Assembly (NCBI GenBank): GCA_036517175.1
Contig: DATDXQ010000028.1
Location: forward strand, 2,113 to 66,112
From: Minisyncoccota bacterium
Lineage (GTDB): Bacteria; Patescibacteriota; Minisyncoccia; 2-02-FULL-40-12; IGHO2-01-FULL-4-A
DNA length: 64,000 nucleotides
Reading direction: 5' to 3'
Part shown: positions 358 to 29,796 of the stretch, piece by piece
How the letters are laid out: every line of letters starts with the position of its first letter
Numbering within the stretch: position 1 is the stretch's first letter
The notes under the pieces: model-generated
Seen by the model: the letters and a program-made list of their open reading frames with translations, nothing else
Told to the model about the DNA's origin: nothing
Database searches by the model: none
Made by a program: the position numbers and the translations under genes

Positions 358-1296
358 TTAAAATTTAGGCCAAAGGGCAGGATCAACCTGCTCCGGATCG
401 CTTATCGCCAGTTCGGAAAGTCTAAGACAAACCTCATCTGGTAATGGACCATACTCAGCAGCAAGTACGGCCTCATAAAGATGCTCTAACTTATTCGTAC
501 CGATCAAAGATGTCGAAATAGAAAAATCCTTAGACAATGCAAAACGAATAGCCAAAGAAGGCAAACTCATACTCAACTCCGTAGCTATTCTATTCGCCTC
601 CAAAGAATTATTTTTTAATAAATTTAACTCCCTTGGTAGATCTACTGCGCAATCGCCCAATACACCCCTCAAAAGAATAGAACGGTTGATCACACCTACG
701 TTTTCCATAAGGGCCATGGGAAGAAAAAGGTCCCCCAATCTCTGATCCAGAATACTGTATGCAATATTAACTACATCAAAAAAATCGCAACTAACTGCCG
801 CCATCGCAGCAAGTTCACCACGAATTGAAATGCCTGAAAACTGTATCTTTCCTTCCTGTTTAAGTTTGCTCAACACCTCTATCAAATCTCCCCTTTTTAT
901 CTGTGCCCGACTACCTCCGTGCAATTGCAAAATGGTAAGAGAATCAACTTGCAAGTTACGTAAATTATCTTCAACCTCAGTTCTTATTCTTCTCTCCAAT
1001 TCTACTCTCGGTGGATCTTCACCTTTTTCAAGAAAGTGGGCGCACTTAGTGGCAATGATTACGCCTGGCAATTTAGCTATGCCCGACTTAGCAATTCTTT
1101 CATCAGCGCGTTGGTGAATATGTGCCGTATCAAAAAGATTAATTCCCAAATCAACAGCCCCCCTGAGCAATTGAATGGCTTGTAGCTCAGTCGGCACTGT
1201 ACGCAGCCCAATTCCGTAGGGCATACCTATTTCTGCGGTTCCTAAACCCAGACGCGAAACCCGCAATCCGGTTCGTCCCATTGTTTTGTATTGCAT
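358..1296 (-). CDS. Aldo/keto reductase family oxidoreductase.
   Basis: N-terminus MGRTGLRVSRLGLGTAEIG. AKR-like (beta/alpha)8 motif pattern. Confidence 0.8.
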   Translation of the reverse strand: MQYKTMGRTGLRVSRLGLGTAEIGMPYGIGLRTVPTELQAIQLLRGAVDLGINLFDTAHIHQRADERIAKSGIAKLPGVIIATKCAHFLEKGEDPPRVELERRIRTEVEDNLRNLQVDSLTILQLHGGSRAQIKRGDLIEVLSKLKQEGKIQFSGISIRGELAAMAAVSCDFFDVVNIAYSILDQRLGDLFLPMALMENVGVINRSILLRGVLGDCAVDLPRELNLLKNNSLEANRIATELSMSLPSLAIRFALSKDFSISTSLIGTNKLEHLYEAVLAAEYGPLPDEVCLRLSELAISDPEQVDPALWPKF

Positions 1297-1349
1297 TTTA
1301 TTTTCTCTATCATTTTAAATGAACTCTGGCAAAATAACATATTTTATTA

Positions 1350-1385
1350 AAAAAGTAAACCCCACTAAAATGCGGGGATAAAAAT
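1350..1385 (-). terminator. Rho-independent terminator after the SDR gene.
   Basis: Hairpin ccccac-taaaat-gcgggg. On the minus strand it is followed by a T-run. Confidence 0.5.
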
Positions 1386-1386
1386 A

Positions 1387-2205
1387 TCACAAAGAGGTCT
1401 GGCCGCCATCAACTATCAAATTCTGGCCAGTCATAAAAGAAGATGCATCGGAACAAAGAAACAACAGAGCACCCTGATAGTCGTTCGGCCTTGCCGGACG
1501 GCGAAGCATATTGCGCTCACCAAGCTTAGCAAGAAATTCCGGTTCAATTGAGCCGAAGTTTACCGCACCAGGAGATAAGGCATTACATCGAATATTAGGC
1601 GCTACCATTGCGAAATAAGCAGCCCAAGTCTTTGCCAGATGCACAACTGCAGCCTTTACTACGGGATAAGCAACTGACTTATATCTTCCAGGTTTGTACT
1701 TTCTATGATCTGGAACAGTTATCGCTGAGGTTGAACCAATATTTACAATGCATCCCATGTTTCTGGGTATCATATGTCTTGAAACCGCCTGCGTGCAATT
1801 CTGAGCTCCTATTAAACCAACCTCCAATTCTAACTTAAATTGCTCCAACGGGAATTCTTCGTAACGAGACCAGTCCGCATCCTCGGACAAATCGGCAACA
1901 CCAGCATTAACCTTTGGATTGAGCGCAGCATTGTTTATCAAGACATCGACACTCCCAAACATACCCACAACAGAATCAACATTTGCTTTTGCAGATCTCG
2001 GCTTGGTTATATCAACATGTAGTTGAAGGACACCTAACGCTTCTAACTTATTTGAATGATCGGCAACATCAAACGACACAACCTTAGCTCCGGCGGCTTT
2101 GAGTATTTCCGCATGTCTAATCCCCAATCTGCCTGCTCCGCCGGTAATAATTGCTACCTTGCCTTCCAAGGAAAATAGATTCCCTATTTTTTGCTGATCC
2201 ATCAT
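1387..2205 (-). CDS. Short-chain dehydrogenase/reductase (SDR).
   Basis: Rossmann motif ITGGAGRLG. ATG at 2203-2205 preceded by GGAGG. ATGA overlap with the stop of the upstream gene. The ORF-track TTG start at 2235 is probably an over-extension. Confidence 0.8.
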   Translation of the reverse strand: MMDQQKIGNLFSLEGKVAIITGGAGRLGIRHAEILKAAGAKVVSFDVADHSNKLEALGVLQLHVDITKPRSAKANVDSVVGMFGSVDVLINNAALNPKVNAGVADLSEDADWSRYEEFPLEQFKLELEVGLIGAQNCTQAVSRHMIPRNMGCIVNIGSTSAITVPDHRKYKPGRYKSVAYPVVKAAVVHLAKTWAAYFAMVAPNIRCNALSPGAVNFGSIEPEFLAKLGERNMLRRPARPNDYQGALLFLCSDASSFMTGQNLIVDGGQTSL

Positions 2206-3023
2206 TCTGTTCCTCCATACACGCTTGTTAACCAATATTTACAAAGTTCAAAATAAGTCTGGTTCAAAACAACGTCGTCCTTATTCTCTGATCGGGCACC
2301 CTGAATTATAAATGGCCTTACATAATCAACCCTTTCTAGAGCCTTGAAGGCGCCAAATATATCCGCACAGCCCATGCCAAGAGGAACAGTCTCCCCTCCA
2401 TTAGGCATCCTGTCTTTTACATGAACTCCAACAATATGAGAACCCAGTAGCGAAATTTCTCCAGGAACATCAACTCCCACACTTGCCATGTTTCCAATGT
2501 CATAATAGACACCGATATGCGGATCGTTAAAAGAAGAAACAAAATCCAACAATTCAGAAGCCGGCATTTCAGATTCAATACCTATTTGGACGCCCGTATT
2601 TTTGCAAATACTTAGGACTCGTTTCAACAAAGTCCGCGCTGATTGTTTATCTTCTAAAGTTTTCAAGGTATTTTCTTTAAAGAAAGATACCAAAACAACT
2701 GAAGCCCCAATCTTGTGAGCTGAATTAATTATCGAACCCAAAACCATAGGATAGCCATCGCTCTTTTCATAAAATCCATGCACTGAAGGAAGATACAATC
2801 TATTACCGCCCGATAACCAGCTCAACTCAGAAATACCGCCATAATACCAGAGCGGGCTCTTTTTGTATTTCTTGGCCTTAACCAATAGTTCCACACAATC
2901 AAAGCCAATCTTTTTTGCGACAGGAAACTCTGCCTGCCAATCTTCTGGAAAAAACTGGATACTACCATCGGGAGAAGGCGTAAGTCGCCCCTGCAATATC
3001 CCAAGCAGAGGGATGTTTGCCAT
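2202..3023 (-). CDS. Sugar phosphate isomerase/epimerase (xylose-isomerase-like TIM barrel).
   Basis: N-terminus MANIPLLGILQGRL with AGGAG upstream of the ATG at 3021-3023. Family assignment is by overall similarity pattern. Confidence 0.55.
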   Translation of the reverse strand: MANIPLLGILQGRLTPSPDGSIQFFPEDWQAEFPVAKKIGFDCVELLVKAKKYKKSPLWYYGGISELSWLSGGNRLYLPSVHGFYEKSDGYPMVLGSIINSAHKIGASVVLVSFFKENTLKTLEDKQSARTLLKRVLSICKNTGVQIGIESEMPASELLDFVSSFNDPHIGVYYDIGNMASVGVDVPGEISLLGSHIVGVHVKDRMPNGGETVPLGMGCADIFGAFKALERVDYVRPFIIQGARSENKDDVVLNQTYFELCKYWLTSVYGGTE

Positions 3024-3092
3024 TAATTTACTCCTTAAAATTATTAAACAGCATCCCACTAAAATATCATTTATTTACAAAAGGTCAACCCA

Positions 3093-4466
3093 TCAGATGA
3101 TTCTACTCGTCTCTTTTACAGATTCCTCAAAAACACGAACACCTTCTTTGAGTGCGGCATCTGGTATGGTGAGTGGTGGCGCAAGCTTGATTGACTCACG
3201 CCCAGTGTGGACCAGTAACAAACCCTTCTGCATAGCAAGTTCACAAACACGGCTAGCAAAATCACCATCTGGCTCTCCGGTCCTTGATTTTTTGAATAAC
3301 ACCGCAGCCACAAGTCCTCGTCCGTTTATATGAGCAATGTGCTGAGGATATTTTTGCTTGATTTCGTTAAGCATGCCGAACAGAATCTCACCTTTTCTCG
3401 AAGACTCGCCGACCAAATTTCTTGATTCTATCTCTTCTAAATTAGCCAGCCCGGCGGCACACGCCAAAGCATTACCAGAATGAGTACTGTGTCCAACGTC
3501 AGCTAATTCCGCCAGATCAATCAGATCCCTTCTTCCAACAACCGCCGATAAGGGCAGGCTACTACTCAACCCCTTCCCAAGACAAATTAAATCCGGTTTT
3601 ATTTTATAGTGTTCGAAGGCAAACAACTTACCAGTTCTGCCAAAACCGCTTTGTATTTCATCGACAGTAATCAAAAGTTTGTTAATTTTTGCGAACTTAA
3701 TTAATTCGTCCAAATAAGGCTTGGGGTAAAATAATGCTCCCCAACCCTGATAGGCCTCAATCATGACCCCACACAAATTTTCTATTTTCAATCCTTTGCT
3801 AACAAGATCCTTTATATCACTCCTAAATTTCTCCGCCCAATCAATTTTTTTATTTTCCCAACTAAACGGGAAAGGTAACCGATGAATATTTGGATCAGAA
3901 AAACCAAAAACATTAATAAACTTGGCATTACCCTTTAGCGTTTGAGCAACACTTGAAACACCGTGCATATTCCCAAGAAAAGAAAGAACACCAATTTTGT
4001 TCTTATTCGTGAGTTGTCCGTTAACTCTCATTATCAAAACAGCACATTCAGCAACTTCTGTTCCAGAAGAAGCCAAGATAACTTTTTGGCAAAAATCTGG
4101 GGTCACATCAATAAGTTTTTTAGCAAATTTATTTTTTATATCAGTAGGATAATCGTAAGCATGCAGAAGATCATCATTAACCTGTCCAATTATTGCCTTT
4201 TTTATCTTCTTATTTGAATGTCCGCTATTCGCAACAAAAATAGTCGAGGTAAAATCAATCCATTTGTTACCGGCTCCGTCAAAAACGTTAAAATCGATTG
4301 CCCGATCCCAAGCCAGTGGTATCTGTCGTGGCGGCAGACCAACACCAAACCTACCGCCCCCTCTTATTATCTTGACTGTTTCTGGCGAAGGAATGGACGT
4401 TTTTATTATTCTGTATTTTGTCTTAACAAGAGTTACTTTTTTTGGTTTTAAGGAAAAATTATACAT
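3093..4466 (-). CDS. Class III PLP-dependent aminotransferase, probably a sugar aminotransferase.
   Basis: 457 aa. Class-III fold motifs: GSEAVE-like SGTEVAECA, and the DEIQSGFGRTG PLP region. Confidence 0.75.
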   Translation of the reverse strand: MYNFSLKPKKVTLVKTKYRIIKTSIPSPETVKIIRGGGRFGVGLPPRQIPLAWDRAIDFNVFDGAGNKWIDFTSTIFVANSGHSNKKIKKAIIGQVNDDLLHAYDYPTDIKNKFAKKLIDVTPDFCQKVILASSGTEVAECAVLIMRVNGQLTNKNKIGVLSFLGNMHGVSSVAQTLKGNAKFINVFGFSDPNIHRLPFPFSWENKKIDWAEKFRSDIKDLVSKGLKIENLCGVMIEAYQGWGALFYPKPYLDELIKFAKINKLLITVDEIQSGFGRTGKLFAFEHYKIKPDLICLGKGLSSSLPLSAVVGRRDLIDLAELADVGHSTHSGNALACAAGLANLEEIESRNLVGESSRKGEILFGMLNEIKQKYPQHIAHINGRGLVAAVLFKKSRTGEPDGDFASRVCELAMQKGLLLVHTGRESIKLAPPLTIPDAALKEGVRVFEESVKETSRII

Positions 4467-4494: not shown

Positions 4495-5253
4495 TTAGTT
4501 TTCTTTTTTGAAATTAGCTTTTAAATAATCGTAAACAGAATTATCTTGTTTCTTTGTAAAGATGTATTCCAAATATTCAACATCCTCAGGCGTATCAATT
4601 TCGATCGTAAATGGGGTTTCAAAAGCCAGTGATTTCTGACCATAAAATAGGCCTGGGTTCTGTTTAATAAAATCAGGCCTGACAATATCAACATAGCCGT
4701 TTGGATGAAAAGCGGTAGGAAACGATTGCCTAGGCAAATTATAATACTCAGGCCTGGGATCATCAGGAAAAAAACCGGTCCAGTAGCCACCCTCTCCAAT
4801 TTTAAACATCTTCTGCGGCGGTTCTGCTAGCTTGTGTGCTGAACGAAGAGAGGTCGCCCTTGGGTCTGCTCCCAGCTTCTCAATAGCAGAATCCATCATA
4901 ATTGGATCACGGAGCGGCGTCGCCGGCCGTAGTTGAACTAACAGGTCAGGTAGATCGCCCTCATTTTCCTCAAGCCACTTTATTGCATGAGTAAAAACAT
5001 CCAGGTCAGTAGAATTATCCTGGGCAAACTCTTCGGGTCTGATGAATGGCACTTCTGCACCATATTTTTTCGCAATTTCAGAAATTTCAGGCGAGTTGGT
5101 TGATACTATATTCCTACTAATCCTTTTGCTGAGTTTTGATGCAGCTATTGAGTATGCGATAACGGGATACCCACCCAAAAACTTGATGTTCTTACCGGGA
5201 ACACCCTTTGATCCACCGCGAGCTTGGATTATAGAGTAGATTTTTTGACTCAT
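4495..5253 (-). CDS. CMP-nonulosonic acid synthetase (acylneuraminate cytidylyltransferase family).
   Basis: N-terminus IIQARGGSKGVPGKNI, typical of NeuA/PseF/LegF-type cytidylyltransferases. Confidence 0.8.
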   Translation of the reverse strand: MSQKIYSIIQARGGSKGVPGKNIKFLGGYPVIAYSIAASKLSKRISRNIVSTNSPEISEIAKKYGAEVPFIRPEEFAQDNSTDLDVFTHAIKWLEENEGDLPDLLVQLRPATPLRDPIMMDSAIEKLGADPRATSLRSAHKLAEPPQKMFKIGEGGYWTGFFPDDPRPEYYNLPRQSFPTAFHPNGYVDIVRPDFIKQNPGLFYGQKSLAFETPFTIEIDTPEDVEYLEYIFTKKQDNSVYDYLKANFKKEN

Positions 5254-5324: not shown

Positions 5325-5356
5325 GCAATAAAAAACCGCGCATGCGGTTTGTTAAA
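5325..5356 (-). terminator. Rho-independent terminator.
   Basis: Palindrome aaccgcgcatgcggtt flanked by an A-run and a T-run, downstream of the NeuB-like gene. Confidence 0.5.
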
Positions 5357-9498: not shown

Positions 9499-9611
9499 AG
9501 AAATATAACTTAAAACCATTCTGACACCATACCCCCAATAGATCAATTAAAATAACCAGAAAACCAAGCTTGTATTTGTATTTATTAAGAAAAAAGATTT
9601 ATACTAATTTC

Positions 9612-21025: not shown

Positions 21026-21060
21026 GGCCGGACCATACCACAGCAAACCAATCTTGTTAA

Positions 21061-23410: not shown

Positions 23411-25072
23411 TTATATTTCCGTCACATAATCTCCAGATACCCAACCAGTCGTGCCATTCGATAATTTAACCTTATACCAACCATTGCTTATTTCCCAAAA
23501 ATCAATCTGCTGATCTGGAGATAGTTGTCCCAATATACTGCTGGATGTTGTGGCAGCTTGTCTAACCCTCAAGAAACTTATATTACTGAGAACCTTAAGA
23601 GTTCCCCCCACCCTCATTTTGGCAAATTCTTCTCCTGATATAATTTTTACATCCGCCCAATTATAACCGGCAGCGTTAAATTCGGCCAATGTTCTTATCC
23701 ACCTCAACGTGCCATCTGAACCAACAACATATACCTTAGGATCATTAACTTTCCTGTAAAGCTGCGGCGAAGACATCTCTCCTGGCGCAAAGCTCATACT
23801 AGTGAATTCATTTACCGATATTATCTTAACGTCCGACCATTTATAATTAGAGGCATTAAATTCCTCAAGAGTCTTTACCCAATGAAGTCCGTCATCTTTT
23901 TGAACATAGACCTTTGGATCGCCATCTTTTCTGTACAATTTCATTATTCCTGTCGTGGCTTCTGATGTCGGTGTCGGCTCAGGAGTTGTTTGCGTGAAAA
24001 CCTCAGGGGTTGCTGTAGGTGTTGGCGTGGGGGATGCGGCGTCCGCAATACTTCCGCCTCCACCGCTTGGAGCAGTCTTTGGAGGAGTAATGTCTGTAGA
24101 AACCTGGGCGTCTGAGTCGGATGTTCGATCAGTGTAGGTTACACTTGTAGTGTCGTATCCGGTCAAAACAAACTTAGCTGAGGTTCCCGTATTTGCAAGC
24201 GGCACAGAACAATACCAATTACCGTCTGAATTATTCGTACACGTTGTTCCAAAGCTGTCTCCGGCCGTTACAGTTCCTGTTGTAAATTTGTTGTTAGTAA
24301 AATCTCCACCAGATTCATAAACTCTAACTTTATGTCCAAAAGACAAACCACTTTCATCAACATCACTATCATCTCCAGTTCCGAAATCAATAGATTGAGA
24401 AGCAGTGCCGGATACTGTAAGAGTTCCGCTTGAAGTTGCCTTAACATAACCATCAGCCTCAGCGGTAACAGTGCCTCCACTAGTTGAACCGGCAATATAC
24501 TTCTTACCACCTCTATAAGACTCTGACGCAGTTGTTCCATTGTAAGATGCCGAAGCGCTAGAACCATCAAGAGTAATGGCTGTACCAAGCTCATCATCTA
24601 CACCGTTTATTACAATATTGAAATCCAAACTTGCATAAGTTGTAAATGGACTGGATGTGGAAGCGCCTGGAAAAGAAGCGTTAGTCCACTCTCTTACAAC
24701 CCAACCGTCAATAGATGCAGAAGCTCTTAATGTTTCACTTTCTCCTATGGTACAGCTAGCAGCTGTCATTTCCGCAGATGCTGAAGCCACCTTTATTATA
24801 CCATCACGCGCGTTGGTGCTTTCTGAAGCTGTGTTATCGTTAACTTGACCAAAACTGGAAGCGCCATCGCAGTACCACCTTATAGTCAATGTTCCGCCTT
24901 CGGACAAAAGATCGTTCAGTTCAGTGTCTATTCTAAACCAGACAAACTCTCCATCATCAGCGGCATGCGCTTTGTCTGAAAACAACAAAAAAGTCGCAAG
25001 TGTCGCGACAAAAACTGCAAATACAATAAAAACTCGACCTAGAGTTAAACTAGCATAAGATGAATTATTCAT
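23411..25072 (-). CDS. Secreted Thr/Ser/Gly-rich surface protein with two tandem roughly 45-aa repeats and a C-terminal bacterial SH3 domain.
   Basis: Signal peptide ...SDKAHA|ADDG. Low-complexity T/S/G body. Duplicated LYRKxxDPKVYVxxxDGxxxWIxTLxEFNAxxYxWxDVKIIS. C-terminal NGWYKVKLSNGTTGWVSGDYV (SH3b). Confidence 0.6.
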   Translation of the reverse strand: MNNSSYASLTLGRVFIVFAVFVATLATFLLFSDKAHAADDGEFVWFRIDTELNDLLSEGGTLTIRWYCDGASSFGQVNDNTASESTNARDGIIKVASASAEMTAASCTIGESETLRASASIDGWVVREWTNASFPGASTSSPFTTYASLDFNIVINGVDDELGTAITLDGSSASASYNGTTASESYRGGKKYIAGSTSGGTVTAEADGYVKATSSGTLTVSGTASQSIDFGTGDDSDVDESGLSFGHKVRVYESGGDFTNNKFTTGTVTAGDSFGTTCTNNSDGNWYCSVPLANTGTSAKFVLTGYDTTSVTYTDRTSDSDAQVSTDITPPKTAPSGGGGSIADAASPTPTPTATPEVFTQTTPEPTPTSEATTGIMKLYRKDGDPKVYVQKDDGLHWVKTLEEFNASNYKWSDVKIISVNEFTSMSFAPGEMSSPQLYRKVNDPKVYVVGSDGTLRWIRTLAEFNAAGYNWADVKIISGEEFAKMRVGGTLKVLSNISFLRVRQAATTSSSILGQLSPDQQIDFWEISNGWYKVKLSNGTTGWVSGDYVTEI

Positions 25073-25132
25073 ATGCTAGCATTATACAACATAATATATA
25101 TATATATTAAAATATTGTGGATAACTCAACAT

Positions 25133-26275
25133 TTAAGACGCTGCTGACCCCCCTTCGGTTGCAATAAGTTTTTGTAATTCTTGAAAAAGTTTTTTTATTG
25201 CTGATTTTTTTTCAAAATTTTTGGAAATTTTAATGCCCTCAACCCCATATTTAGTCAAAACGTCAGGATGTGACAATAAATCCGATATTTTAAAGGACAG
25301 GTCACGCCAATCCCAATCAGCTATACTACCGCTTTCTCCATCAATAATCACATCTGGCACTATACCGACCATTGTTGCCACAACTGGTACACCGCAGGCC
25401 ATAGATTCTAACACAACCCTCGGACCACCTTCACTGTATGATGTCATCACCAAAATCTTAGATTTATTTATAAATTCAGCGACTTCTAGAGAATCCTTAG
25501 CCCAACCATACAGTACGACATTATCACCCAATTTTAAATTTTTAATTTTTGATTTTAGATTATGCCACTCTGGTCCTGTTCCGACAATTAGTAATTTGAT
25601 ATTTTGTATATTTATTTTTAGATTTTTAACAGCATCCAACAGGAGGTCAAGACCCTTGTTTTTATCCAAGCGACCAATAAAAATCAGATCATACTCCTTG
25701 ATTAAAGCCATCGGCCTAAACACATCGAGATCTATATAGAAAGAAGGGATATGTACTATTTTCTTAAGAGGAACACCTGATTTTAGTAAAAATTCCTGGG
25801 TTTGCCTTTGATTAACGACCCTCACCGCCAATGCCCTTGAAGAGTCGTATCTTATAAACAATCTCGTGGCAAACTTGTAAATTAGATCTTTAAAATTAGC
25901 ACTCTTTGGATACCCCGGAACATGGTGAGTCTCTAGAACATATGGGATCTTTATCTTGCCCCAAAGCAAGCGGGCCCCAATGCCATTGTAAAAGGGGGGG
26001 TACTCATGAACCATAATAATGTTAAATTTTTGTTCTAGAAATGTCTGTAAGCCCTTCTTGAATATCCATACAGGCTGTAACCACAAGGCCCAAGGAGATG
26101 GGTGGAGAAAAACATTGCCAAATAAAACTTCATTTTGTCTCTCGCCATTTACTGCTCTAGGAGATATTATGTCTATACGCTCCCAATACTTGTGAAATTC
26201 TTCCAGGGTATTATAAAATGCACCCTTCTTATCAAGAGATGTGGCACCATAACCGCTTATCATTAGTAGTTTCAT
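25133..26275 (-). CDS. Glycosyltransferase family 4. It contains a G7 tract.
   Basis: MACGVPVVATMVGIVPDVI..GESG GT4 motif. Homopolymer G7 at 25994-26000. Confidence 0.75.
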   Translation of the reverse strand: MKLLMISGYGATSLDKKGAFYNTLEEFHKYWERIDIISPRAVNGERQNEVLFGNVFLHPSPWALWLQPVWIFKKGLQTFLEQKFNIIMVHEYPPFYNGIGARLLWGKIKIPYVLETHHVPGYPKSANFKDLIYKFATRLFIRYDSSRALAVRVVNQRQTQEFLLKSGVPLKKIVHIPSFYIDLDVFRPMALIKEYDLIFIGRLDKNKGLDLLLDAVKNLKINIQNIKLLIVGTGPEWHNLKSKIKNLKLGDNVVLYGWAKDSLEVAEFINKSKILVMTSYSEGGPRVVLESMACGVPVVATMVGIVPDVIIDGESGSIADWDWRDLSFKISDLLSHPDVLTKYGVEGIKISKNFEKKSAIKKLFQELQKLIATEGGSAAS

Positions 26276-27354
26276 ATTATTTTTGCAATATCCTTGGCTG
26301 CTTCTCTTAACCTAGCCGACGTTTCAAGACCAGCTTCAACAAATTGGTCCCTTAATACAGCATTACGCCAAAGAGCCTTAACCGCCTCTAGTATATTGAA
26401 TTCGTCATTATATCTTACAATAAAACCGTTCTCGCCCTGCCTGATTAACTCCGGATTAGCACCCACAGCAGTAGCCACTACTGGCACCCCAGCTGACATT
26501 GCGCGCAAAACAGTGCTGGAGGAAGGCTCATGACCACTGTTTAAAATAAGCAGGTCAGCAGCCAAGAAAAAACGACTCAATTCTTCTTCCTCTTTTATTT
26601 CGCCGACAAAAATCACCTTACCATTTAGACCAATGTTCTTTATCATAGATTCTAGAACCTTTTGCTCTGGGCCACTACCCATAATGACTAACCTAAAAAA
26701 CTGGTTAATTTCTAGAAGCTGCGGCATAATTTTTACAAGCATTCTAAATCCCATCCAAGGCACAAGCGGGCCCTTAGAAACAATCAAGGCACCCGGAATA
26801 CCTATTTTTTTTCTACATTCCTCTTTAGTCATGCCCGCAATATAAAAATCTGTTGGATAAATTAGTATTTTTATCTTAGTTGGATCTATACCCCACCCCA
26901 AAACTATTCTTGACATAAAAGAAGACGGAACCAATACAGAACCCGAAATTTCGCAGGATTTAATTTGTTTTTTGTTAATTGAAGAAGTGGTACCCTCTTT
27001 TTTTGATTTCTGGAAATCTCCAACAAGAAGATAATTGTCACCTCTTCTTATTGCCTCTCTCCAAGCGTAATCATCTTCAACCCAAACAACAAATCTTTTA
27101 TTGGCTCTTTGCGCCGCCTTAGCAGCTAACGATCCTGTACCAACAGGACTCAAGGCCATAACAACATCTGCTTGGCGAGCCAATTTTAATATTTTTAAAA
27201 AAACCACCATATTTCTTAGGGGCTGGGGTAACCAATGGTCAAAAGACGCAACAACAACACTGCAACTGACCGACAAGTCTAAGGCCAAACGATTTGGATC
27301 TATTGTACCAACACCAGATCTGCGCCATTCAGGAATTATTAATAATTTTTTCAT
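26272..27354 (-). CDS. Glycosyltransferase family 4.
   Basis: MSAGVPVVATAVGANPELI GT4 motif. Start trimmed to the ATG at 27352-27354. Confidence 0.7.
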   Translation of the reverse strand: MKKLLIIPEWRRSGVGTIDPNRLALDLSVSCSVVVASFDHWLPQPLRNMVVFLKILKLARQADVVMALSPVGTGSLAAKAAQRANKRFVVWVEDDYAWREAIRRGDNYLLVGDFQKSKKEGTTSSINKKQIKSCEISGSVLVPSSFMSRIVLGWGIDPTKIKILIYPTDFYIAGMTKEECRKKIGIPGALIVSKGPLVPWMGFRMLVKIMPQLLEINQFFRLVIMGSGPEQKVLESMIKNIGLNGKVIFVGEIKEEEELSRFFLAADLLILNSGHEPSSSTVLRAMSAGVPVVATAVGANPELIRQGENGFIVRYNDEFNILEAVKALWRNAVLRDQFVEAGLETSARLREAAKDIAKII

Positions 27355-27367
27355 AATAAAGCCGGAG

Positions 27368-28552
27368 TTAGCTGCGCAAAATGTCACCGCAACTTTTAGC
27401 TATAATATCCCAGTCGTAATTTTCTAAAACTAAATTGCTGGCATTTTTGATAATAATCTCTTTCAACTTAGGTTCCTGGCTCAATTTAAAAATCTGCCCA
27501 GCCAAATCTTCGGCATCATTGATCTTACAAAACAAACCAGTTTTTTCATTTTCCAAAAAATCTGGTATTCCACCAACGTTGGTACCAATAACGGGGACAC
27601 CAGCTGCCATTGCCTCTAGAAAGGCATTGCCCAAACCCTCTGATCGTGATGGCCTGACAAAAACTTCAGCGATCTTAAGATACTTAGGTAACTCGTCGTG
27701 TCCGACTGATCCAACAAATACAACCTTATCGCCTAGTCCCAAATTTTCAGCTCTAGATTCCAGACTGGGCCTTTCCTGACCGCTTCCCACGATGAGAAGT
27801 TTCATGTTTGTTATTTTATATTTTGTATTTAGGATACCCAGCGCCTCAATTAAAACATCTATAGCGTTCTTGGGCACTAGACGAGAAACACTTATAATTA
27901 TCTTTTCTCCTGGCTCTATACCCAGAGTCTCTGCTAGACCAGAGAGTTCTCCATAACTATAGTCCCTTTTGAAATTAGCGATATCTACACCGTTTGGCAC
28001 TCTTATAACCTTAGCTCTTTTATTTAAATCCTTGGCATAATTCTTTAGATAATTGCTTATGGCTATAACCACATCTGCTTTCTTTATGATAAGCCCTCTG
28101 AAAAAATTGAGTAAGAAACCTTGTTTATTAAAATCCTGGCCCTCCTGTAAATTAAGAATATAGCGAACTCTAGGATTAAAAAACTTAAATAACCAAGCAG
28201 CGCCCCCCCCCTGGGAGGCCTGCAAAGCATAAATCTTTTTATAAGGTCCCAATTTTTTTGACAGCTCCCTTCCCTTAAAATAGGCCATTATTGGATATAG
28301 AGCCTTAGGAATAAAGATCCTGGACAAGTTCAATCTAGATCCCACGCGGTATACAGTAGTGTTATTAATTTTTTCCTCAGTTGGAAGAAGTTTTTTGGGA
28401 TTTGAGGGATCTGGCAACCGAGAAGCGATCAAGTCAAAAGTTATATCTGGAAGTCGAGTCGCAATTTCATGGAATGCCAGTTCGGCTCCACCAATGTTGG
28501 GCAAATAGTTGGTTGCAAAAACCAATATTCTTTGGGTTGTATTTTTATACAT
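27368..28552 (-). CDS. Glycosyltransferase family 4. It contains a G9 tract (C9 on the plus strand).
   Basis: MAAGVPVIGTNVGGIPDFL..EKTG GT4 motif. Start trimmed to the ATG at 28550-28552. Homopolymer at 28203-28211. Confidence 0.7.
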   Translation of the reverse strand: MYKNTTQRILVFATNYLPNIGGAELAFHEIATRLPDITFDLIASRLPDPSNPKKLLPTEEKINNTTVYRVGSRLNLSRIFIPKALYPIMAYFKGRELSKKLGPYKKIYALQASQGGGAAWLFKFFNPRVRYILNLQEGQDFNKQGFLLNFFRGLIIKKADVVIAISNYLKNYAKDLNKRAKVIRVPNGVDIANFKRDYSYGELSGLAETLGIEPGEKIIISVSRLVPKNAIDVLIEALGILNTKYKITNMKLLIVGSGQERPSLESRAENLGLGDKVVFVGSVGHDELPKYLKIAEVFVRPSRSEGLGNAFLEAMAAGVPVIGTNVGGIPDFLENEKTGLFCKINDAEDLAGQIFKLSQEPKLKEIIIKNASNLVLENYDWDIIAKSCGDILRS

Positions 28553-28575
28553 TTTACTATATAATAGTGTCACAA

Positions 28576-29796
28576 ATGAACACTGGAATCAACCAGATAA
28601 TCTTACCTAATAACAAGAACCCGATAAGGGTTTTGTTTATTATTACCCAATCAGAACTTGGAGGTGCTCAAAGATTTATTTCACAGTTGTTGCCCAATCT
28701 CAGCAAGAATAACTTTGAACTAACCGTGGCCACAGGACGTGATGGCAAAGAGGAGCTACAATCTCTATTGCCCGCCAATACAAAGTACATCAATACCAAG
28801 AACCTGCGTCGCAATCCAAACCTACTTTCAGACATATTGTCCCTGTTTGAAATAAAAAAAATAATCAAACAGCTCAGCCCCGATGTTTTGTTTTTAAACA
28901 GTTCCAAGGCAGGATTCATCGGCTCCCTATCAGCTCGCCTATTGAAACCAAAGCAAAGGCAACCCAAAGTAATTTACCGAATCGGCGGCTGGACATTCAA
29001 TGACCCCTGGCCTTTGTGGAAAAAAATCCTATATCGATGGTTGGAAAAAATAAGCGCCAAATGGAAGGATTACATAATAGTAAACAACAAGCATGATTAT
29101 GATCAAGCCATCAAATTTGGGATAAAACCGCGAAAAAAAGTCGAGCTTATATATAATGGCATCGACCCTTATAAACTTGATTTTCTGGAAAAGGATGAGG
29201 CTAAGATAAGATTGTATGAAAAGCTGCCACCATCAGAAAAACACGGCAGTTTTTTGCACAAAGGCCTGCTCATAGGCACAATTGCTAATTTTTATCCCGC
29301 AAAAGGCTTAGAGTATCTAATTGATGCATTCTCCAGCATTCAATCACCCACTGCTAATTTAATAATTATCGGGGATGGTCAAGGAAGGCAGGATCTTGAA
29401 TCTAGAATTAAAAACCTAGGGTTAGAAAATAAGGTTTTTCTAGCCGGGCATATATTGAATGGGCACAAATACCTCAAGGCATTTGATATTTTTGTTTTGC
29501 CTTCAGTCAAAGAAGGATTCCCCTGGTCATTGCTTGAGGCGATGTCAGCCAAACTTGCAGTTGTAGCCACCAGCGTAGGAGCTATTCCAGAAATAATTGA
29601 AGATGGAAAAAATGGTTTTCTTGCACAACCAGCAAACGCACAAAGCCTAGCCAAGGCAATTAAGGAATTATATAGCAATGAGGATATGAGGCGCGAATTC
29701 GGCATCCAGGCTCATCAAACTATTATCCACAAATTTTCTCTCAACAAGATGGTCGAACAGACCAAAGAGATACTTCAGAAAGGCTTTTTGTGTTAA
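28576..29796 (+). CDS. Glycosyltransferase family 4.
   Basis: RVLFIITQSELGGAQRF N-terminus and MSAKLAVVATSVGAIPEII..GKNG. The ATG at 28576 is preferred over the ORF-track start at 28381. Confidence 0.75.
   Translation: MNTGINQIILPNNKNPIRVLFIITQSELGGAQRFISQLLPNLSKNNFELTVATGRDGKEELQSLLPANTKYINTKNLRRNPNLLSDILSLFEIKKIIKQLSPDVLFLNSSKAGFIGSLSARLLKPKQRQPKVIYRIGGWTFNDPWPLWKKILYRWLEKISAKWKDYIIVNNKHDYDQAIKFGIKPRKKVELIYNGIDPYKLDFLEKDEAKIRLYEKLPPSEKHGSFLHKGLLIGTIANFYPAKGLEYLIDAFSSIQSPTANLIIIGDGQGRQDLESRIKNLGLENKVFLAGHILNGHKYLKAFDIFVLPSVKEGFPWSLLEAMSAKLAVVATSVGAIPEIIEDGKNGFLAQPANAQSLAKAIKELYSNEDMRREFGIQAHQTIIHKFSLNKMVEQTKEILQKGFLC

What the first reader, a model, noticed from the sequence alone, without database searches (positions are those of the whole stretch)
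358..29796. A roughly 30 kb contiguous glycan-biosynthesis locus that combines four distinct sugar pathways with ten glycosyltransferases
One mostly co-oriented block encodes four things. The first is a nonulosonic-acid-like route: a class III aminotransferase, a NeuB-family synthase, a CMP-transferase and an SIS isomerase reminiscent of the PtmF/legionaminic pathway. The second is Gmd plus a NUDIX GDP-mannose hydrolase. The third is a cupin, reductase and zinc-ribbon C-methyltransferase trio typical of C-methyl deoxysugars. The fourth is a DPM1-like polyprenyl-P-sugar synthase with two PMT/ArnT-like GT-C transferases. There are also eight GT4 genes. The locus runs directly into the envelope-protein block with the S-layer-like gene. 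This makes it a candidate S-layer or protein O-glycosylation machine with an unusual sugar repertoire. The class III aminotransferase (rather than a DegT-type) next to NeuB is atypical.
Basis: partly seen in the sequence, partly recalled or inferred. Interest (0 to 1): 0.5.

Follow-up and report, generated by a model that had tools for sequence, protein, structure and literature searches.

The report
Surface-glycan gene island in CPR bacterium
A 30-kb block of sugar-making and sugar-transferring genes in an uncultivated, ultra-small Paceibacterota (CPR) bacterium is real and probably decorates its surface proteins, and one part of it is a widespread but apparently unstudied pathway for a sialic-acid-like sugar.

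Summary
Five independent assemblies reproduce the middle 18 kb at 99.5-99.99% identity.

Corrections:
- There are 7 GT4 genes (not 8), 2 polyprenyl-P-sugar-synthase-like GT2 and 2 PMT_2 GT-C, so 11 glycosyltransferases. A 12th, a TPR-bearing GT-C, lies just outside the range.
- The locus runs off the left window edge.
- The host is a Candidatus Paceibacterota MAG.

The NeuB route is not legionaminic- or pseudaminic-like. No NDP-HexNAc dehydratase, DegT aminotransferase, acetyltransferase or NeuC/PseG is present. The NeuB has no SAF domain and is only 31-34% identical to canonical NeuB paralogues in related genomes. It sits in a conserved cassette: GmhA-like SIS, NeuB, CTP_transf_3, class-III aminotransferase, then AP_endonuc_2, SDR, AKR and a methyltransferase. 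In relatives the cassette also carries a KdsC-type phosphatase. The logic is therefore Kdo/Kdn-like (sugar phosphate + PEP), with tailoring whose chemistry is unknown.

The cytidylyltransferase-aminotransferase pair is obligate (59 of 61 loci). I found no paper linking CPR bacteria to NeuB or nonulosonic acids.

The neighbouring 1205-aa protein is a Parcubacteria-wide multi-Ig surface protein. It is always paired with the TPR GT-C, but the glycan island beside it is variable.

Verdict: an ordinary kind of locus that contains a new variant of ulosonic-acid pathway.

The parts
2..298 (-). N-terminal part of the cassette's SAM methyltransferase; the gene runs off the left window edge
   Evidence: tblastn: 70% identity to the methyltransferase that follows the AKR in L084, and 49% to the L002 one. 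The reading frame is seen.
358..1296 (-). Aldo/keto reductase, tailoring step of the ulosonic-acid cassette
   Evidence: Pfam PF00248, 98 bits. Homologues of 46-55% identity sit in cassettes L002, L016, L021, L085 and L087.
1387..2235 (-). Short-chain dehydrogenase, cassette tailoring step
   Evidence: Pfam adh_short_C2, 132 bits. Linked to NeuB in 23 of 83 genome loci and to the aminotransferase in 15 of 26 loci with enough downstream flank.
2202..3059 (-). Xylose-isomerase-like TIM barrel (AP_endonuc_2): sugar or sugar-phosphate isomerase, epimerase or dehydratase of the cassette
   Evidence: Pfam, 65 bits. Weak similarity to L-ribulose-5-P 3-epimerase UlaE (NCBIfam 69 bits; PDB 3cqh 4e-12). 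Found fused to NeuB-SAF in other genomes.
3093..4466 (-). Class-III (omega-type) PLP aminotransferase, fixed partner of the cytidylyltransferase
   Evidence: Pfam, 249 bits. Best PDB matches are GABA, ornithine and putrescine transaminases. CTP_transf_3 lies directly upstream in 59 of 61 loci.
4495..5253 (-). CMP-ulosonate synthetase-like cytidylyltransferase
   Evidence: Pfam CTP_transf_3, 68 bits. PseF 127 bits, below its cut-off of 206. PDB NeuA 9ftb 2e-29.
5360..6340 (-). NeuB-family PEP-condensing ulosonate synthase; no SAF domain; about 40-aa insertion at residues 53-118
   Evidence: Pfam, 234 bits in two stretches. PDB 8h2c and 6ncs. 59-73% identical to CPR cassette NeuBs, but 31-34% to canonical NeuB+SAF paralogues.
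6419..7042 (-). GmhA-like SIS sugar-phosphate isomerase
   Evidence: PDB 1tk9 1e-40. NCBIfam GmhA 154 bits, below its cut-off of 276. GmhA motifs are kept, with a 6-aa insertion in the phosphate loop.
7118..7840 (-). Soluble GT2, polyprenyl-phosphate sugar synthase-like
   Evidence: Pfam GT2, 86 bits. Best NCBIfam hits are AglJ, PpgS, PgfS and ArnC, all below their cut-offs. No TM segment.
7846..8427 (-). NUDIX-fold protein with a degenerate Nudix box, possibly related to GDP-mannose mannosyl hydrolase
   Evidence: Pfam NUDIX, 50 bits. The only full-length PDB match is 1rya, E=0.0017. The box reads RHTLKNTGL.
8476..9546 (-). GDP-mannose 4,6-dehydratase-like enzyme (probable true start near 9498)
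   Evidence: Pfam GDP_Man_Dehyd, 311 bits. TIGR01472 286 bits, below its cut-off of 415. The gene is called as 340 aa in L165.
9570..10076 (+). Cupin, Cap5F-C-terminal-like, probable keto-sugar epimerase (probable start 9612)
   Evidence: Pfam Polysacc_synt_C and Cupin_2. PDB Cap5F, E about 0.002.
10078..10782 (+). Divergent short Rossmann protein, candidate 4-ketoreductase
   Evidence: Only a 47-residue Epimerase-family match. No significant PDB match. The role is inferred from position alone.
10785..12035 (+). NDP-hexose 3-C-methyltransferase (TylCIII/TcaB9 type)
   Evidence: Pfam Methyltransf_13, _23 and _14. Full-length PDB matches 4rv9 (7e-53) and TcaB9/KijD1 (1e-39).
12108..12635 (+). 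DUF218 protein
   Evidence: Pfam, 39 bits. A DUF218 gene also sits in the L173 nonulosonate cluster.
12695..14122 (-). GT-C glycosyltransferase 1 (PMT_2)
   Evidence: Pfam PMT_2, 35.5 bits. At least 7 TM segments.
14380..15792 (-). Methyltransferase fused to a polyprenyl-phosphate sugar synthase-like GT2
   Evidence: Pfam Methyltransf_23 and GT2. AglJ 96 bits and dolichyl-P hexose transferase 56 bits, both below their cut-offs.
15808..17481 (-). GT-C glycosyltransferase 2 (PMT_2)
   Evidence: Pfam PMT_2, 53.5 bits. About 12 TM segments. Weak ArnT hit.
17509..17916 (-). 135-aa protein with four TM segments; possible small lipid-sugar flippase (unproven)
   Evidence: 4 TM segments. Only a sub-threshold DUF2238 hit.
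17920..19056 (-). GT4 glycosyltransferase 1
   Evidence: Pfam Glycos_transf_1 and Glyco_transf_4. No equivalog.
19080..19982 (+). GFO/IDH/MocA oxidoreductase, sugar-nucleotide 3-dehydrogenase-like
   Evidence: Pfam, 85 bits. UDP-GlcNAc 3-dehydrogenase 101 bits, below its cut-off of 450.
19979..21046 (-). FAD/NAD-binding oxidoreductase of unknown role
   Evidence: Only the N-terminal DAO/NAD_binding_8 region matches. No PDB match.
21061..22251 (-). GT4 glycosyltransferase 2
   Evidence: Pfam, 144 bits. Generic GT4 hits only.
22244..23323 (-). GT4 glycosyltransferase 3
   Evidence: Pfam, 68 bits.
23411..25072 (-). Secreted 553-aa protein with a Ser/Thr/Gly-rich region, a Pro/Thr linker, two repeats and a C-terminal SH3_3 domain; candidate glycosylation substrate
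   Evidence: Pfam SH3_3. N-terminal hydrophobic segment. Sequence read.
25133..26275 (-). GT4 glycosyltransferase 4
   Evidence: Pfam, 130 bits.
26272..27387 (-). GT4 glycosyltransferase 5
   Evidence: Pfam, 106 bits.
27368..28573 (-). GT4 glycosyltransferase 6
   Evidence: Pfam, 152 bits.
28381..29796 (+). GT4 glycosyltransferase 7 (probable start ATG 28576)
   Evidence: Pfam, 138 bits, with the domain starting at residue 94. Start codons listed.
32010..32573 (-). 187-aa secreted or anchored protein with a Pro/Thr-rich linker; a small protein follows the big surface protein in relatives too
   Evidence: Small genes of 177-206 aa at the equivalent place in L170-L172.
32582..34351 (-). Third GT-C: 10-TM GT-C-fold domain with an FWDDDDW loop plus a C-terminal TPR domain (TMTC-like architecture)
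34492..38109 (-). 1205-aa surface protein made of Ig-like beta-sandwich domains; Parcubacteria-wide family; candidate S-layer protein or adhesin and glycosylation target
   Evidence: No Pfam hit. 417 homologues at 48-81% identity, all labelled hypothetical. AF2 and Foldseek. Hairpin terminator at 34389-34416.

Best explanation
The region is a strain-variable surface-glycan island in a Candidatus Paceibacterota (CPR/Patescibacteria) genome. It is built from four modules that together supply and transfer unusual sugars to the cell surface.

Module 1 (from beyond the left edge to 7042) makes a CMP-activated 3-deoxy-2-ulosonic acid by Kdo/Kdn-type logic.
- A GmhA-like isomerase turns a ketose phosphate into an aldose phosphate.
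- A SAF-less NeuB paralogue condenses it with PEP.
- A KdsC-type phosphatase removes the phosphate. This enzyme is present in relatives but is not in this window.
- The acid is tailored by an SDR, an AKR, an AP_endonuc_2 enzyme and a methyltransferase.
- It is aminated by an omega-type class-III aminotransferase.
- It is CMP-activated by the cytidylyltransferase.

Module 2 (7846-12035) converts GDP-mannose into a GDP-6-deoxy-3-C-methyl-hexose. The enzymes are a Gmd-like dehydratase, a TylCIII/TcaB9-type 3-C-methyltransferase, a Cap5F-like cupin and a Rossmann reductase.

Module 3 comprises two polyprenyl-phosphate sugar synthase-like GT2 and two PMT_2 GT-C enzymes, plus a conserved TPR GT-C next door. 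It moves single sugars from lipid-phosphate carriers onto acceptors outside the membrane.

Module 4 is seven cytoplasmic GT4 enzymes that build oligosaccharide.

The most likely acceptors are secreted Ser/Thr/Pro-rich proteins encoded in and beside the island, including the 1205-aa multi-Ig surface protein.

Shown here: family memberships, gene order, conservation of the cassette, the GT-C fold and the Ig-domain architecture.

Inferred: every substrate, the order of tailoring steps, and the acceptor.
For: The cassette is conserved in the same order in L084 (73% identical NeuB): SIS, NeuB, CTP3, AT3, KdsC-like HAD, AP_endonuc_2, SDR, AKR, MT. It also appears in Taylorbacteria L002 and in L173, an unclassified bacterial MAG.

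Across 83 genome loci, NeuB co-occurs with CTP3 in 35, SIS in 23, SDR in 23 and AP_endonuc_2 in 17.

A 163-aa HAD protein follows NeuB in 34 loci. It scores above the KdsC subfamily cut-off (117-126 bits vs 107) and resembles Kdn-9-P phosphatase. This points to a phosphorylated NeuB product.

AT3 loci: CTP3 is upstream in 59 of 61, and NeuB is present in 21 of 36 loci with enough flank. NeuB-SAF-AP_endonuc_2 fusion proteins link those two steps.

The SIS keeps the GmhA catalytic motifs. The cassette NeuB is only 31-34% identical to canonical NeuB+SAF paralogues in the same kinds of genome.

The C-methyltransferase aligns over its full length with sugar 3-C-methyltransferases. A Gmd plus TylCIII-type route was proposed for Coxiella virenose (PMC3539893).

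The gene order GT-C, MT-GT2, GT-C has gaps of 275 and 15 bp. The TPR GT-C fold is shown.

The surface protein and the TPR GT-C are syntenic in Nomurabacteria and Yanofskybacteria. Secreted proteins with Pro/Thr linkers are read.
Against: - No substrate or product has been measured.
- The window has no KdsC-type phosphatase and no VOC protein. It has no recognisable ulosonic-acid transferase.
- It has no initiating phosphoglycosyltransferase, flippase, ABC exporter or polymerase. How the seven GT4 products reach the surface is therefore open.
- Nine of 23 fully flanked AT3 loci have CTP3, AT3, VOC and HAD without any NeuB nearby. The aminotransferase may therefore act on something other than the NeuB product.
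- The island is absent from the equivalent position in a 71%-identical relative. A strong terminator separates the surface-protein gene from what follows. The link to that protein is therefore positional only.
- The Rossmann 'reductase' and the NUDIX assignments are weak.
Confidence: 0.6

Rival explanations
1. The island makes a non-protein glycoconjugate, such as a lipoglycan or wall-associated polysaccharide. In this reading the GT4 enzymes glycosylate a membrane lipid in the cytoplasm, and the GT2/GT-C pairs extend or decorate it outside. This is how actinobacterial lipomannan is made, and how ArnC/ArnT or CsbB/YfhO-type decoration of lipid A and teichoic acids works (comparison from general knowledge).
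For: There is no oligosaccharyltransferase, PGT or flippase for a lipid-linked oligosaccharide. GT4 best hits include glycolipid and teichuronic-acid enzymes (MGlcDAG synthase, IagA/BgsA, TuaC), all below their cut-offs. PMT_2 GT-C enzymes also include lipid and polymer glycosyltransferases, with a weak ArnT hit. The L002 cassette is followed by a Polysacc_synt flippase-like gene. The CPR envelope is poorly understood (PMC5220378).
Against: A secreted protein with a Ser/Thr/Pro-rich linker is embedded among the GT4 genes. The conserved neighbour GT-C carries a TPR domain and resembles protein O-mannosyltransferases in fold. No lipid- or teichoic-acid-synthesis gene is present in the window.
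Confidence: 0.25
2. The 30 kb is not one machine. It is a mosaic of independent, separately transferable modules parked in a hypervariable region: the ulosonate cassette, the GDP-sugar set, the GT-C set and the GT4 array. They may serve different glycoconjugates, and the neighbourhood with the surface protein is coincidental.
For: The ulosonate cassette occurs on its own in many phyla with quite different neighbours. The island is missing after the GSDH gene in L172. The locus has four strand switches and hairpin terminators inside it, at 1360-1377, 5333-5350 and 12651-12671. The surface protein, TPR GT-C and GSDH genes form a conserved core block of their own.
Against: Gene spacing is very tight, with most gaps under 100 bp and several overlaps. 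The GT2 that follows the SIS gene sits between modules 1 and 2 on one strand. Mosaic origin does not exclude joint function, so this rival overlaps with the best explanation rather than replacing it.
Confidence: 0.35
3. The NeuB cassette is a legionaminic or pseudaminic acid (or Neu5Ac) pathway, with the class-III aminotransferase replacing the DegT-type enzyme.
For: NeuB and CTP_transf_3 are true family members. The nearest NCBIfam models are NeuB, PseI and PseF. An SDR is present, as PtmA is in Leg clusters.
Against: All equivalog scores are far below their cut-offs. No Polysacc_synt_2/LegB-type dehydratase, DegT, N-acetyltransferase or Epimerase_2/PseG is found anywhere in the 64 kb. The SAF domain is missing. 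L002 and L173 carry a canonical NeuB+SAF system as well as this cassette, so the two are not equivalent. KdsC-type phosphatases accompany the clade. PtmF is listed as an oxidoreductase, not an SIS protein.
Confidence: 0.05

Closest known systems
Kdo and Kdn sugar-phosphate pathways (KdsD-KdsA-KdsC-KdsB; Bacteroides thetaiotaomicron Kdn-9-P synthase, Kdn-9-P phosphatase and CMP-Kdn synthetase; pathways recalled from general knowledge)
   Same: The same four-step logic applies: an SIS isomerase makes an aldose phosphate, PEP is condensed to an ulosonate phosphate, a C0-type HAD phosphatase removes the phosphate, and a CTP_transf_3 enzyme activates the acid. In the Kdn route the synthase is of the NeuB type. 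The HAD proteins next to this NeuB clade pass the KdsC subfamily cut-off and resemble Kdn-9-P phosphatase.
   Different: The isomerase is GmhA-like, not KdsD-like. The phosphatase is missing from this window. Five extra tailoring enzymes, including an obligate class-III aminotransferase, have no counterpart in the Kdo or Kdn routes. The product is unknown.
Legionaminic and pseudaminic acid pathways (C. jejuni leg/ptm and pse genes; Plesiomonas cluster, PMC4481668)
   Same: A NeuB-family synthase and a CMP-transferase lie next to each other, an SDR is in the cluster, and the likely destination is a surface protein.
   Different: None of the NDP-HexNAc dehydratase, DegT aminotransferase, acetyltransferase or hydrolysing epimerase steps is present. 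There is no SAF domain. The equivalog cut-offs are not met. The cassette coexists with canonical systems in L002 and L173.
Kdo8N biosynthesis in Shewanella (KdnB oxidase plus KdnA aminotransferase acting on Kdo; from memory, could not be checked in the paper library)
   Same: It sets a precedent for aminating a finished ulosonic acid at its terminal carbon before CMP activation. That is the chemistry an omega-type aminotransferase would suit.
   Different: As I recall, KdnA is a DegT/aspartate-aminotransferase-fold sugar aminotransferase and KdnB an iron alcohol dehydrogenase. Here the enzymes are a class-III aminotransferase and an SDR/AKR. KdnA does not appear among the PDB matches with E<=1e-30.
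Proposed GDP-virenose route of Coxiella burnetii (Gmd CBU_0689, TylCIII-like CBU_0691, epimerase/reductase; PMC3539893), and the TylCIII/TcaB9/KijD1 3-C-methyltransferases
   Same: A Gmd-type dehydratase sits beside a full-length TylCIII/TcaB9-type C-methyltransferase and epimerase/reductase candidates. This predicts a 6-deoxy-3-C-methyl-hexose.
   Different: The Coxiella route is itself only predicted. Here the epimerase/reductase is a split Cap5F-like cupin plus a very divergent Rossmann protein. The nucleotide carrier has not been verified.
Polyprenyl-phosphate-mannose-dependent protein O-mannosylation (actinobacterial Ppm1/Pmt, fungal PMT, metazoan TMTC; from general knowledge)
   Same: A GT2 lipid-phosphate sugar synthase works with PMT-family GT-C enzymes. 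One GT-C carries a TPR domain, as TMTCs do. Secreted Ser/Thr/Pro-rich proteins are nearby.
   Different: No equivalog-level match exists. The sugars are unknown. One GT2 is fused to a methyltransferase. The acceptor has not been shown.
S-layer and general O-glycosylation gene clusters (Geobacillus/Paenibacillus slg, Tannerella forsythia; from general knowledge)
   Same: Nucleotide-sugar genes, many GTs and, in Tannerella, a nonulosonic acid are clustered near the surface-protein genes.
   Different: Those systems use an initiating phosphoglycosyltransferase, a flippase or ABC exporter and an O-oligosaccharyltransferase. None of these is found here. The BFO_1060-type transferase seen beside the cassette in L002 has no homologue in the window.

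Membership tests
NeuB family (PF03102) ulosonate synthases | Pfam NeuB domain above the gathering score | tested here: met
   234.4 bits against a cut-off of 22.1, in two stretches split by an insertion. PDB PseI 8h2c 1e-35.
N-acetylneuraminate / pseudaminate synthase equivalogs | Score at or above the NCBIfam equivalog cut-off (TIGR03569 399.65; TIGR03586 340.25) | tested here: not met
   237.4 and 200.9 bits.
N-acetylneuraminate / pseudaminate synthase equivalogs | C-terminal SAF (antifreeze-like) domain | tested here: not met
   No PF08666 hit. The protein ends at model position 277 of 329. Canonical paralogues in L002 and L173 do have a SAF domain.
Legionaminic / pseudaminic acid pathway | NDP-HexNAc 4,6-dehydratase (PseB/LegB), DegT-type aminotransferase (PseC/LegC), N-acetyltransferase (PseH/LegH) and a hydrolysing epimerase or nucleotidase (LegG/PseG/NeuC) | tested here: not met
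   No Polysacc_synt_2, DegT_DnrJ_EryC1, acetyltransferase or Epimerase_2 hit among the window proteins scanned.
Legionaminic / pseudaminic acid pathway | CMP-transferase equivalog (PseF TIGR03584, cut-off 205.7) | tested here: not met
   127.3 bits. The Pfam family CTP_transf_3 is met.
Kdo/Kdn-type sugar-phosphate ulosonate pathway | SIS-family sugar-phosphate isomerase next to the synthase | tested here: met
   SIS_2, 58 bits. GmhA-like, PDB 1tk9 1e-40. Catalytic motifs kept. It is GmhA-type, not KdsD-type.
Kdo/Kdn-type sugar-phosphate ulosonate pathway | KdsC / Kdn-9-P-type C0 HAD phosphatase | tested here: not met
   No homologue anywhere in the window. One is present beside the synthase or aminotransferase in L084, in 34 genome loci and in 33 metagenome loci, and it passes the TIGR01670 cut-off.
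Kdo/Kdn-type sugar-phosphate ulosonate pathway | The synthase uses a phosphorylated aldose | not testable with these tools
   Only inferred from the linked isomerase and phosphatase genes.
GDP-6-deoxy-3-C-methyl-hexose pathway | GDP-mannose 4,6-dehydratase | tested here: inconclusive
   Pfam GDP_Man_Dehyd, 311 bits, but TIGR01472 scores 286 bits, below its cut-off of 415.
GDP-6-deoxy-3-C-methyl-hexose pathway | TylCIII/TcaB9-type NDP-hexose 3-C-methyltransferase with an N-terminal zinc domain | tested here: met
   PF08421, PF13489 and PF08484 all hit. Full-length alignment to 4rv9 (7e-53) and TcaB9.
GDP-6-deoxy-3-C-methyl-hexose pathway | Epimerase and 4-ketoreductase | tested here: inconclusive
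   The cupin matches the Cap5F C-terminal domain only at E about 0.002. The Rossmann protein has no significant match.
Polyprenyl-P-sugar / GT-C extracytoplasmic glycosylation | GT2 polyprenyl-phosphate glycosyltransferase | tested here: inconclusive
   Two GT2 proteins have AglJ, PpgS, ArnC or dolichyl-P hexose transferase as their best NCBIfam hits, all far below the cut-offs.
Polyprenyl-P-sugar / GT-C extracytoplasmic glycosylation | Multi-span GT-C transferase | tested here: met
Polyprenyl-P-sugar / GT-C extracytoplasmic glycosylation | Flippase for the lipid-linked sugar (GtrA or ArnE/F type) | tested here: inconclusive
   The 135-aa 4-TM protein at 17509-17916 has no GtrA hit.
S-layer protein | Secreted, abundant, lattice-forming protein with a wall-anchoring module (for example SLH) | tested here: inconclusive
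   It has an N-terminal hydrophobic segment and an all-beta Ig-domain chain, but no SLH or other Pfam domain. Lattice formation and abundance cannot be tested here.
Wzx/Wzy- or ABC-dependent polysaccharide cluster | Initiating phosphoglycosyltransferase, flippase or ABC exporter, and polymerase or ligase | tested here: not met
   None is found in the proteins scanned across the window.

The most novel reading that the evidence does not exclude
The cassette (GmhA-like SIS, SAF-less NeuB, CTP_transf_3, class-III aminotransferase, with AP_endonuc_2, SDR and AKR or VOC tailoring) encodes a CMP-activated amino-ulosonic acid that has not been described. It is built from a sugar phosphate and aminated after condensation, rather than from an NDP-hexosamine. 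It is widespread in CPR bacteria and in many uncultivated freshwater and marine lineages.

In the boldest form, the GmhA-like isomerase supplies a heptose 7-phosphate and the product is a ten-carbon ulosonic acid. CMP-activated C10 ulosonic acids of unknown origin have just been reported from Magnetospirillum (bioRxiv 10.64898/2026.04.20.719630). I put the ten-carbon version alone at about 0.1.
Probability: 0.4. Interest if true: 0.7.

Novelty: new variant of a known kind. Interest (0 to 1): 0.5.

Why it matters
CPR/Patescibacteria are a large share of bacterial diversity. They have tiny genomes and live attached to other cells, and their envelope is largely unknown. A 2017 genome paper stated that the structure and formation of the CPR envelope remain unclear (PMC5220378).

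- **Scale of investment.** One Paceibacterota genome devotes about 30 kb and 11-12 glycosyltransferases to unusual surface sugars. This island lies next to a lineage-wide multi-Ig surface protein that is paired with a TMTC-like GT-C. Together these give concrete, testable candidates for the molecules that mediate host attachment.
- **The ulosonate cassette.** The cytidylyltransferase-aminotransferase cassette is conserved across dozens of metagenomic loci and I found no paper describing it. If its product is a new sialic-acid-like sugar, the known chemical space of ulosonic acids would widen. It would also provide a marker for annotating many genomes that now read 'N-acetylneuraminate synthase'.

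Tried and rejected
- **Canonical Leg/Pse/Neu5Ac reading.** Rejected. The upstream enzymes are absent, the equivalog cut-offs are missed and there is no SAF domain.
- **PtmF analogy for the SIS gene.** Rejected. PtmF is listed as a 326-aa oxidoreductase.
- **KdsC-like phosphatase and VOC protein of related cassettes.** tblastn of the whole window found nothing.
- **Ulosonate-transferase candidates seen in relatives.** The L173 Capsule_synth-like and L002 BFO_1060-like proteins gave no hit in the window and are not similar to each other.
- **Sigma-70 promoter scan.** It was at chance level (52 found against 50 expected, and 53 against 54). Only a few hairpins were useful.
- **Conserved leader upstream of the surface-protein gene.** There is no sequence conservation among four lineages and no notable ORFs or repeats.
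- **Literature searches.** CPR or Patescibacteria combined with nonulosonic, pseudaminic, NeuB or sialic terms, and Kdo8N/KdnA, all returned nothing.
- **Look-up of the 100%-identical JGI NeuB (P0001).** Not on record.
- **Rfam.** Only one tRNA-Met, at 60585-60658.
- **Composition profile.** It gave no clear island signal.

Full report
**What is there.** Reading the minus strand from high to low coordinates, the locus contains the following.
- Six GT4 genes (27368, 26272, 25133, 22244, 21061, 17920) and one divergent GT4 on the plus strand (28381-29796, probable start 28576).
- A secreted 553-aa SH3_3 protein in their midst (23411-25072).
- A convergent FAD-oxidoreductase and GFO/IDH/MocA pair (19080-21046).
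- A 135-aa protein with four TM segments.
- PMT_2 GT-C (15808-17481), a methyltransferase-GT2 fusion (14380-15792) and a second PMT_2 GT-C (12695-14122).
- A plus-strand operon of cupin, short Rossmann protein, C-methyltransferase and DUF218 (9570-12635).
- The minus-strand run Gmd-like (8476), NUDIX (7846), GT2 (7118), SIS (6419), NeuB (5360), CTP_transf_3 (4495), Aminotran_3 (3093), AP_endonuc_2 (2202), SDR (1387) and AKR (358).

A partial ORF at 2-298 is the N-terminus of a methyltransferase. That methyltransferase follows the AKR in the closest related cassette (70% identity), so the locus runs off the window. Most intergenic gaps are under 100 bp and several genes overlap.

The count is 7 GT4 + 2 GT2 + 2 GT-C = 11 glycosyltransferases.

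**Is it an artefact, and whose genome is it?** Five contigs from separate ENA, Logan and JGI assemblies carry the same genes in the same order. They align to window 7392-25792 at 99.5-99.99% identity, so there is no assembly join in the core. Exact protein look-ups place the window on an 80,992-bp contig of a MAG named Candidatus Paceibacterota bacterium (NCBI proteins HEY4507124, -126, -153, -181). This is a member of the CPR/Patescibacteria. For scale, a curated Parcubacterium genome was reported to hold 20 glycosyltransferases in total, and its authors called the CPR envelope unclear (PMC5220378). Here 11-12 sit in one stretch.

**The ulosonic-acid module is not Leg/Pse-like.** NeuB and CTP_transf_3 are clear Pfam members. 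Every NCBIfam equivalog is missed by a wide margin: NeuB 237 vs 400, PseI 201 vs 340, PseF 127 vs 206. The NeuB has no SAF domain and carries an insertion of about 40 residues.

Nothing in the 64 kb resembles a PseB/LegB dehydratase, a DegT aminotransferase, an N-acetyltransferase or a NeuC/LegG/PseG enzyme.

In the Plesiomonas Leg cluster, PtmF is a 326-aa oxidoreductase (PMC4481668). The window SIS protein is GmhA-like: PDB 1tk9 at 1e-40 and GmhA models at 144-154 bits, below their cut-offs. It has a 6-residue insertion in the phosphate-binding loop.

**The cassette is conserved and widespread.** The 120 best-scoring NeuB homologues listed are 55-100% identical, and those that carry a source name are CPR or unclassified bacterial MAGs.

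The closest locus with context is L084 (73% identity). It reads SIS, NeuB, CTP3, AT3, HAD, [APH kinase], AP_endonuc_2, SDR, AKR, MT. This is the window's order plus a phosphatase. Taylorbacteria L002 and MAG L173 carry NeuB, CTP3, AT3, AKR, MT, AP_endonuc_2 and SDR.

Both of those loci also carry a separate canonical NeuB+SAF system. The window NeuB is only 31-34% identical to those canonical paralogues, against 59-73% to cassette NeuBs. The cassette is therefore a distinct paralogous system, not a degenerate copy.

A scan of GTDB species genomes found 596 relatives in many phyla, including Saccharibacteria, Peregrinibacteria, Gastranaerophilales, Acidobacteriota, Chloroflexota, Polyangia and a Streptomyces. 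Among the 83 loci held, tblastn finds CTP3 in 35, SIS in 23, SDR in 23, AP_endonuc_2 in 17, AKR in 5 and AT3 in 3.

De novo clustering of neighbouring ORFs shows a 163-aa HAD protein immediately after NeuB in 34 loci. These HADs pass the KdsC subfamily cut-off (117-126 bits vs 107) and resemble Kdn-9-P phosphatase.

**The aminotransferase.** A metagenome scan with the window's class-III aminotransferase returned 80 loci at 42-63% identity. The findings were as follows.
- A CTP_transf_3 gene lies directly upstream in 59 of the 61 loci that have more than 800 bp of upstream sequence.
- A 145-aa VOC/glyoxalase gene follows in 66 of 72 loci.
- A NeuB is present in 21 of 36 loci with enough flank. 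It is either SAF-less or a NeuB-SAF-AP_endonuc_2 fusion of 630 aa.
- AP_endonuc_2, SDR and KdsC-like HAD are each present in 15 of 26 loci.
- Several loci add a CBS-GHMP kinase whose best model is the heptose-7-P kinase HddA (234 bits, below its cut-off of 600).
- Nine of 23 fully flanked loci have CTP3, AT3, VOC, HAD and YjgF with no NeuB nearby.

The class-III enzyme next to NeuB is therefore unusual against characterised pathways. Within an uncharacterised, widely distributed module, however, it is the rule. Its nearest solved relatives are GABA, ornithine and putrescine transaminases. By general knowledge these enzymes act on terminal aldehydes and primary amines.

**Mechanistic reading of module 1 (inferred).** The gene set parallels the Kdo pathway one-to-one: KdsD/KdsA/KdsC/KdsB against SIS/NeuB/KdsC-like HAD/CTP_transf_3. 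It also parallels the Kdn route, in which a NeuB-type enzyme condenses a sugar 6-phosphate.

I therefore propose this sequence: ketose-P to aldose-P (SIS); condensation with PEP (NeuB); dephosphorylation (phosphatase, not in this window); oxidation, isomerisation and reduction (SDR, AP_endonuc_2, AKR); transamination (AT3); methylation (MT); CMP activation (CTP3).

The order of the tailoring steps and the carbon number are unknown. If the GmhA-like enzyme really makes a heptose 7-phosphate, the product would be a C10 acid. CMP-activated C10 ulosonic acids of unknown origin were recently reported in Magnetospirillum. I rate that specific idea at about 0.1.

Weak points: the window has no phosphatase and no VOC protein. 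It has no recognisable ulosonate transferase. In L002 and L173 the cassette is followed by weak BFO_1060-family GT hits.

**Module 2.** The C-methyltransferase aligns end to end with the solved sugar 3-C-methyltransferases 4rv9, TcaB9 and KijD1. It carries the zinc-binding and C-terminal domains. It sits in a divergent arrangement with a Gmd-like dehydratase, with about 113 bp between the probable starts.

The cupin resembles the Cap5F C-terminal domain only weakly. The 234-aa Rossmann protein has no significant relative. The predicted product is a 6-deoxy-3-C-methyl-hexose, probably GDP-linked, analogous to the in silico route proposed for Coxiella virenose (PMC3539893).

The NUDIX protein has a degenerate Nudix box (RHTLKNTGL in place of REUXEEXGU). 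Its only full-length PDB match is GDP-mannose mannosyl hydrolase at E=0.0017.

**Modules 3 and 4, and the acceptor.** The best NCBIfam hits of both GT2 proteins are polyprenyl-phosphate glycosyltransferases (AglJ, PpgS, ArnC, dolichyl-P hexose transferase), all below their cut-offs. One of them lies between the two PMT_2 GT-C genes. All seven GT4 proteins are generic.

The window holds no initiating phosphoglycosyltransferase, Wzx or ABC exporter, polymerase or O-oligosaccharyltransferase. The acceptor of the GT4 enzymes is therefore open.

Candidate protein acceptors are encoded on the spot.
- The 553-aa protein has a signal anchor, Ser/Thr/Gly-rich regions and a PTPTPTATPE...TPEPTPTSE linker.
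- A 187-aa protein has a similar linker.

**The neighbouring 'envelope block'.** The 589-aa TPR protein at 32582-34351 has 10 TM helices and an FWDDDDW motif after TM1.
- Its homologues are 49-89% identical (mostly 55-76%) across Yanofskybacteria and other Patescibacteria. Some carry PMT or PMT_2 hits, and one JGI record names it protein O-mannosyl-transferase.
- It is therefore a third GT-C with a TMTC-like architecture.

The 1205-aa protein has no Pfam domain.
- It has 417 full-length homologues of 48-81% identity in Yanofsky-, Nomura- and Taylorbacteria and Paceibacterota, all labelled hypothetical.
- Its model (pLDDT 78) is a chain of about ten Ig-like beta-sandwiches.
- Foldseek finds only generic multi-Ig proteins. 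These include PrgB, titin and the Haloferax S-layer protein 7ptp, all with low TM-scores.
- 'S-layer-like' is therefore compatible but unproven.

**Synteny.** The order GH1, EamA, GH..., surface protein, TPR GT-C, small protein, GSDH is conserved in L170-L172. In L172 (71% identical surface protein), the gene after GSDH is a 922-aa beta-helix protein, not the GT4 array.

A strong hairpin (12-bp stem, 34389-34416) follows the surface-protein gene. The surface protein and its GT-C therefore form a conserved core. The 30-kb island is a variable neighbour, as surface-glycan loci often are.

**Verdict.** The general interpretation as a surface, and probably protein, glycosylation machine is plausible and somewhat strengthened. 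The Leg/Ptm analogy is rejected in favour of a Kdo/Kdn-type route with unknown tailoring.

Large glycan loci are ordinary. What is worth follow-up is the conserved, apparently undescribed cytidylyltransferase/class-III-aminotransferase/NeuB cassette, together with the Parcubacteria-wide pairing of the surface protein and the TPR GT-C. No paper linking CPR bacteria to NeuB or nonulosonic acids was found in the library. The library lacks most subscription journals, so this absence is not proof of novelty.

Noticed in passing
window 34492-38109 and 32582-34351; L170, L171, L172: The 1205-aa protein without a Pfam domain belongs to a Parcubacteria-wide family of about 1200-aa multi-Ig surface proteins. 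In L170 and L172 it is followed by a GT-C+TPR gene and a small protein of about 200 aa. In L171 and L172 it is preceded by a GH1-EamA-GH block. The L171 contig ends before a TPR gene could be seen.
   Followed up: yes
window 38110-39181: A 1.07-kb AT-rich (GC 0.33) non-coding stretch lies upstream of the surface-protein gene. Gaps of 0.5-1.5 kb sit at the same place in three other lineages. No sequence conservation, ORFs or notable repeats were found.
   Followed up: partly
L002 3475-5508; L095 2283-4175 and nine further metagenome loci: Single proteins of 630-677 aa fuse NeuB, SAF and an AP_endonuc_2 TIM barrel. This ties the xylose-isomerase-like enzyme functionally to the synthase.
   Followed up: partly
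L173 1-20960; L002 1-21011: A canonical NeuB+SAF nonulosonate gene set lies directly beside the SAF-less cassette, so these CPR genomes appear to make two different ulosonic acids. In L173 this set includes two DegT genes, a GATase/His_biosynth pair and a formyltransferase. The gene after each cassette hits the BFO_1060 glycosyltransferase family weakly.
   Followed up: partly
L109-L146 group, e.g. L142 8537-12784: About a third of the aminotransferase loci have only Crp, CTP_transf_3, Aminotran_3, VOC, KdsC-like HAD and YjgF, with no NeuB nearby. This suggests the cytidylyltransferase-aminotransferase pair can draw on an ulosonate made elsewhere.
   Followed up: partly
L094, L095, L100, L102, L107, L109, L123, L158: A CBS-domain GHMP kinase travels with the cassette. 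Its best model is the heptose-7-phosphate kinase HddA (234 bits, cut-off 600). This adds a second heptose-type enzyme to the GmhA-like isomerase.
   Followed up: no
window 7846-8427: The NUDIX protein has lost the three glutamates of the Nudix box (it reads RHTLKNTGL), so it may not be a conventional pyrophosphohydrolase.
   Followed up: partly
window 52794-53927: A 377-aa protein combines a histidine-kinase-like ATPase domain with a STAS-like DUF4325 domain. It sits among short unannotated ORFs.
   Followed up: no
window 60770-63640 and 60585-60658: A class II (B12-dependent) ribonucleotide reductase with a TSCPD domain lies next to the only tRNA (Met-CAT) in the window.
   Followed up: no
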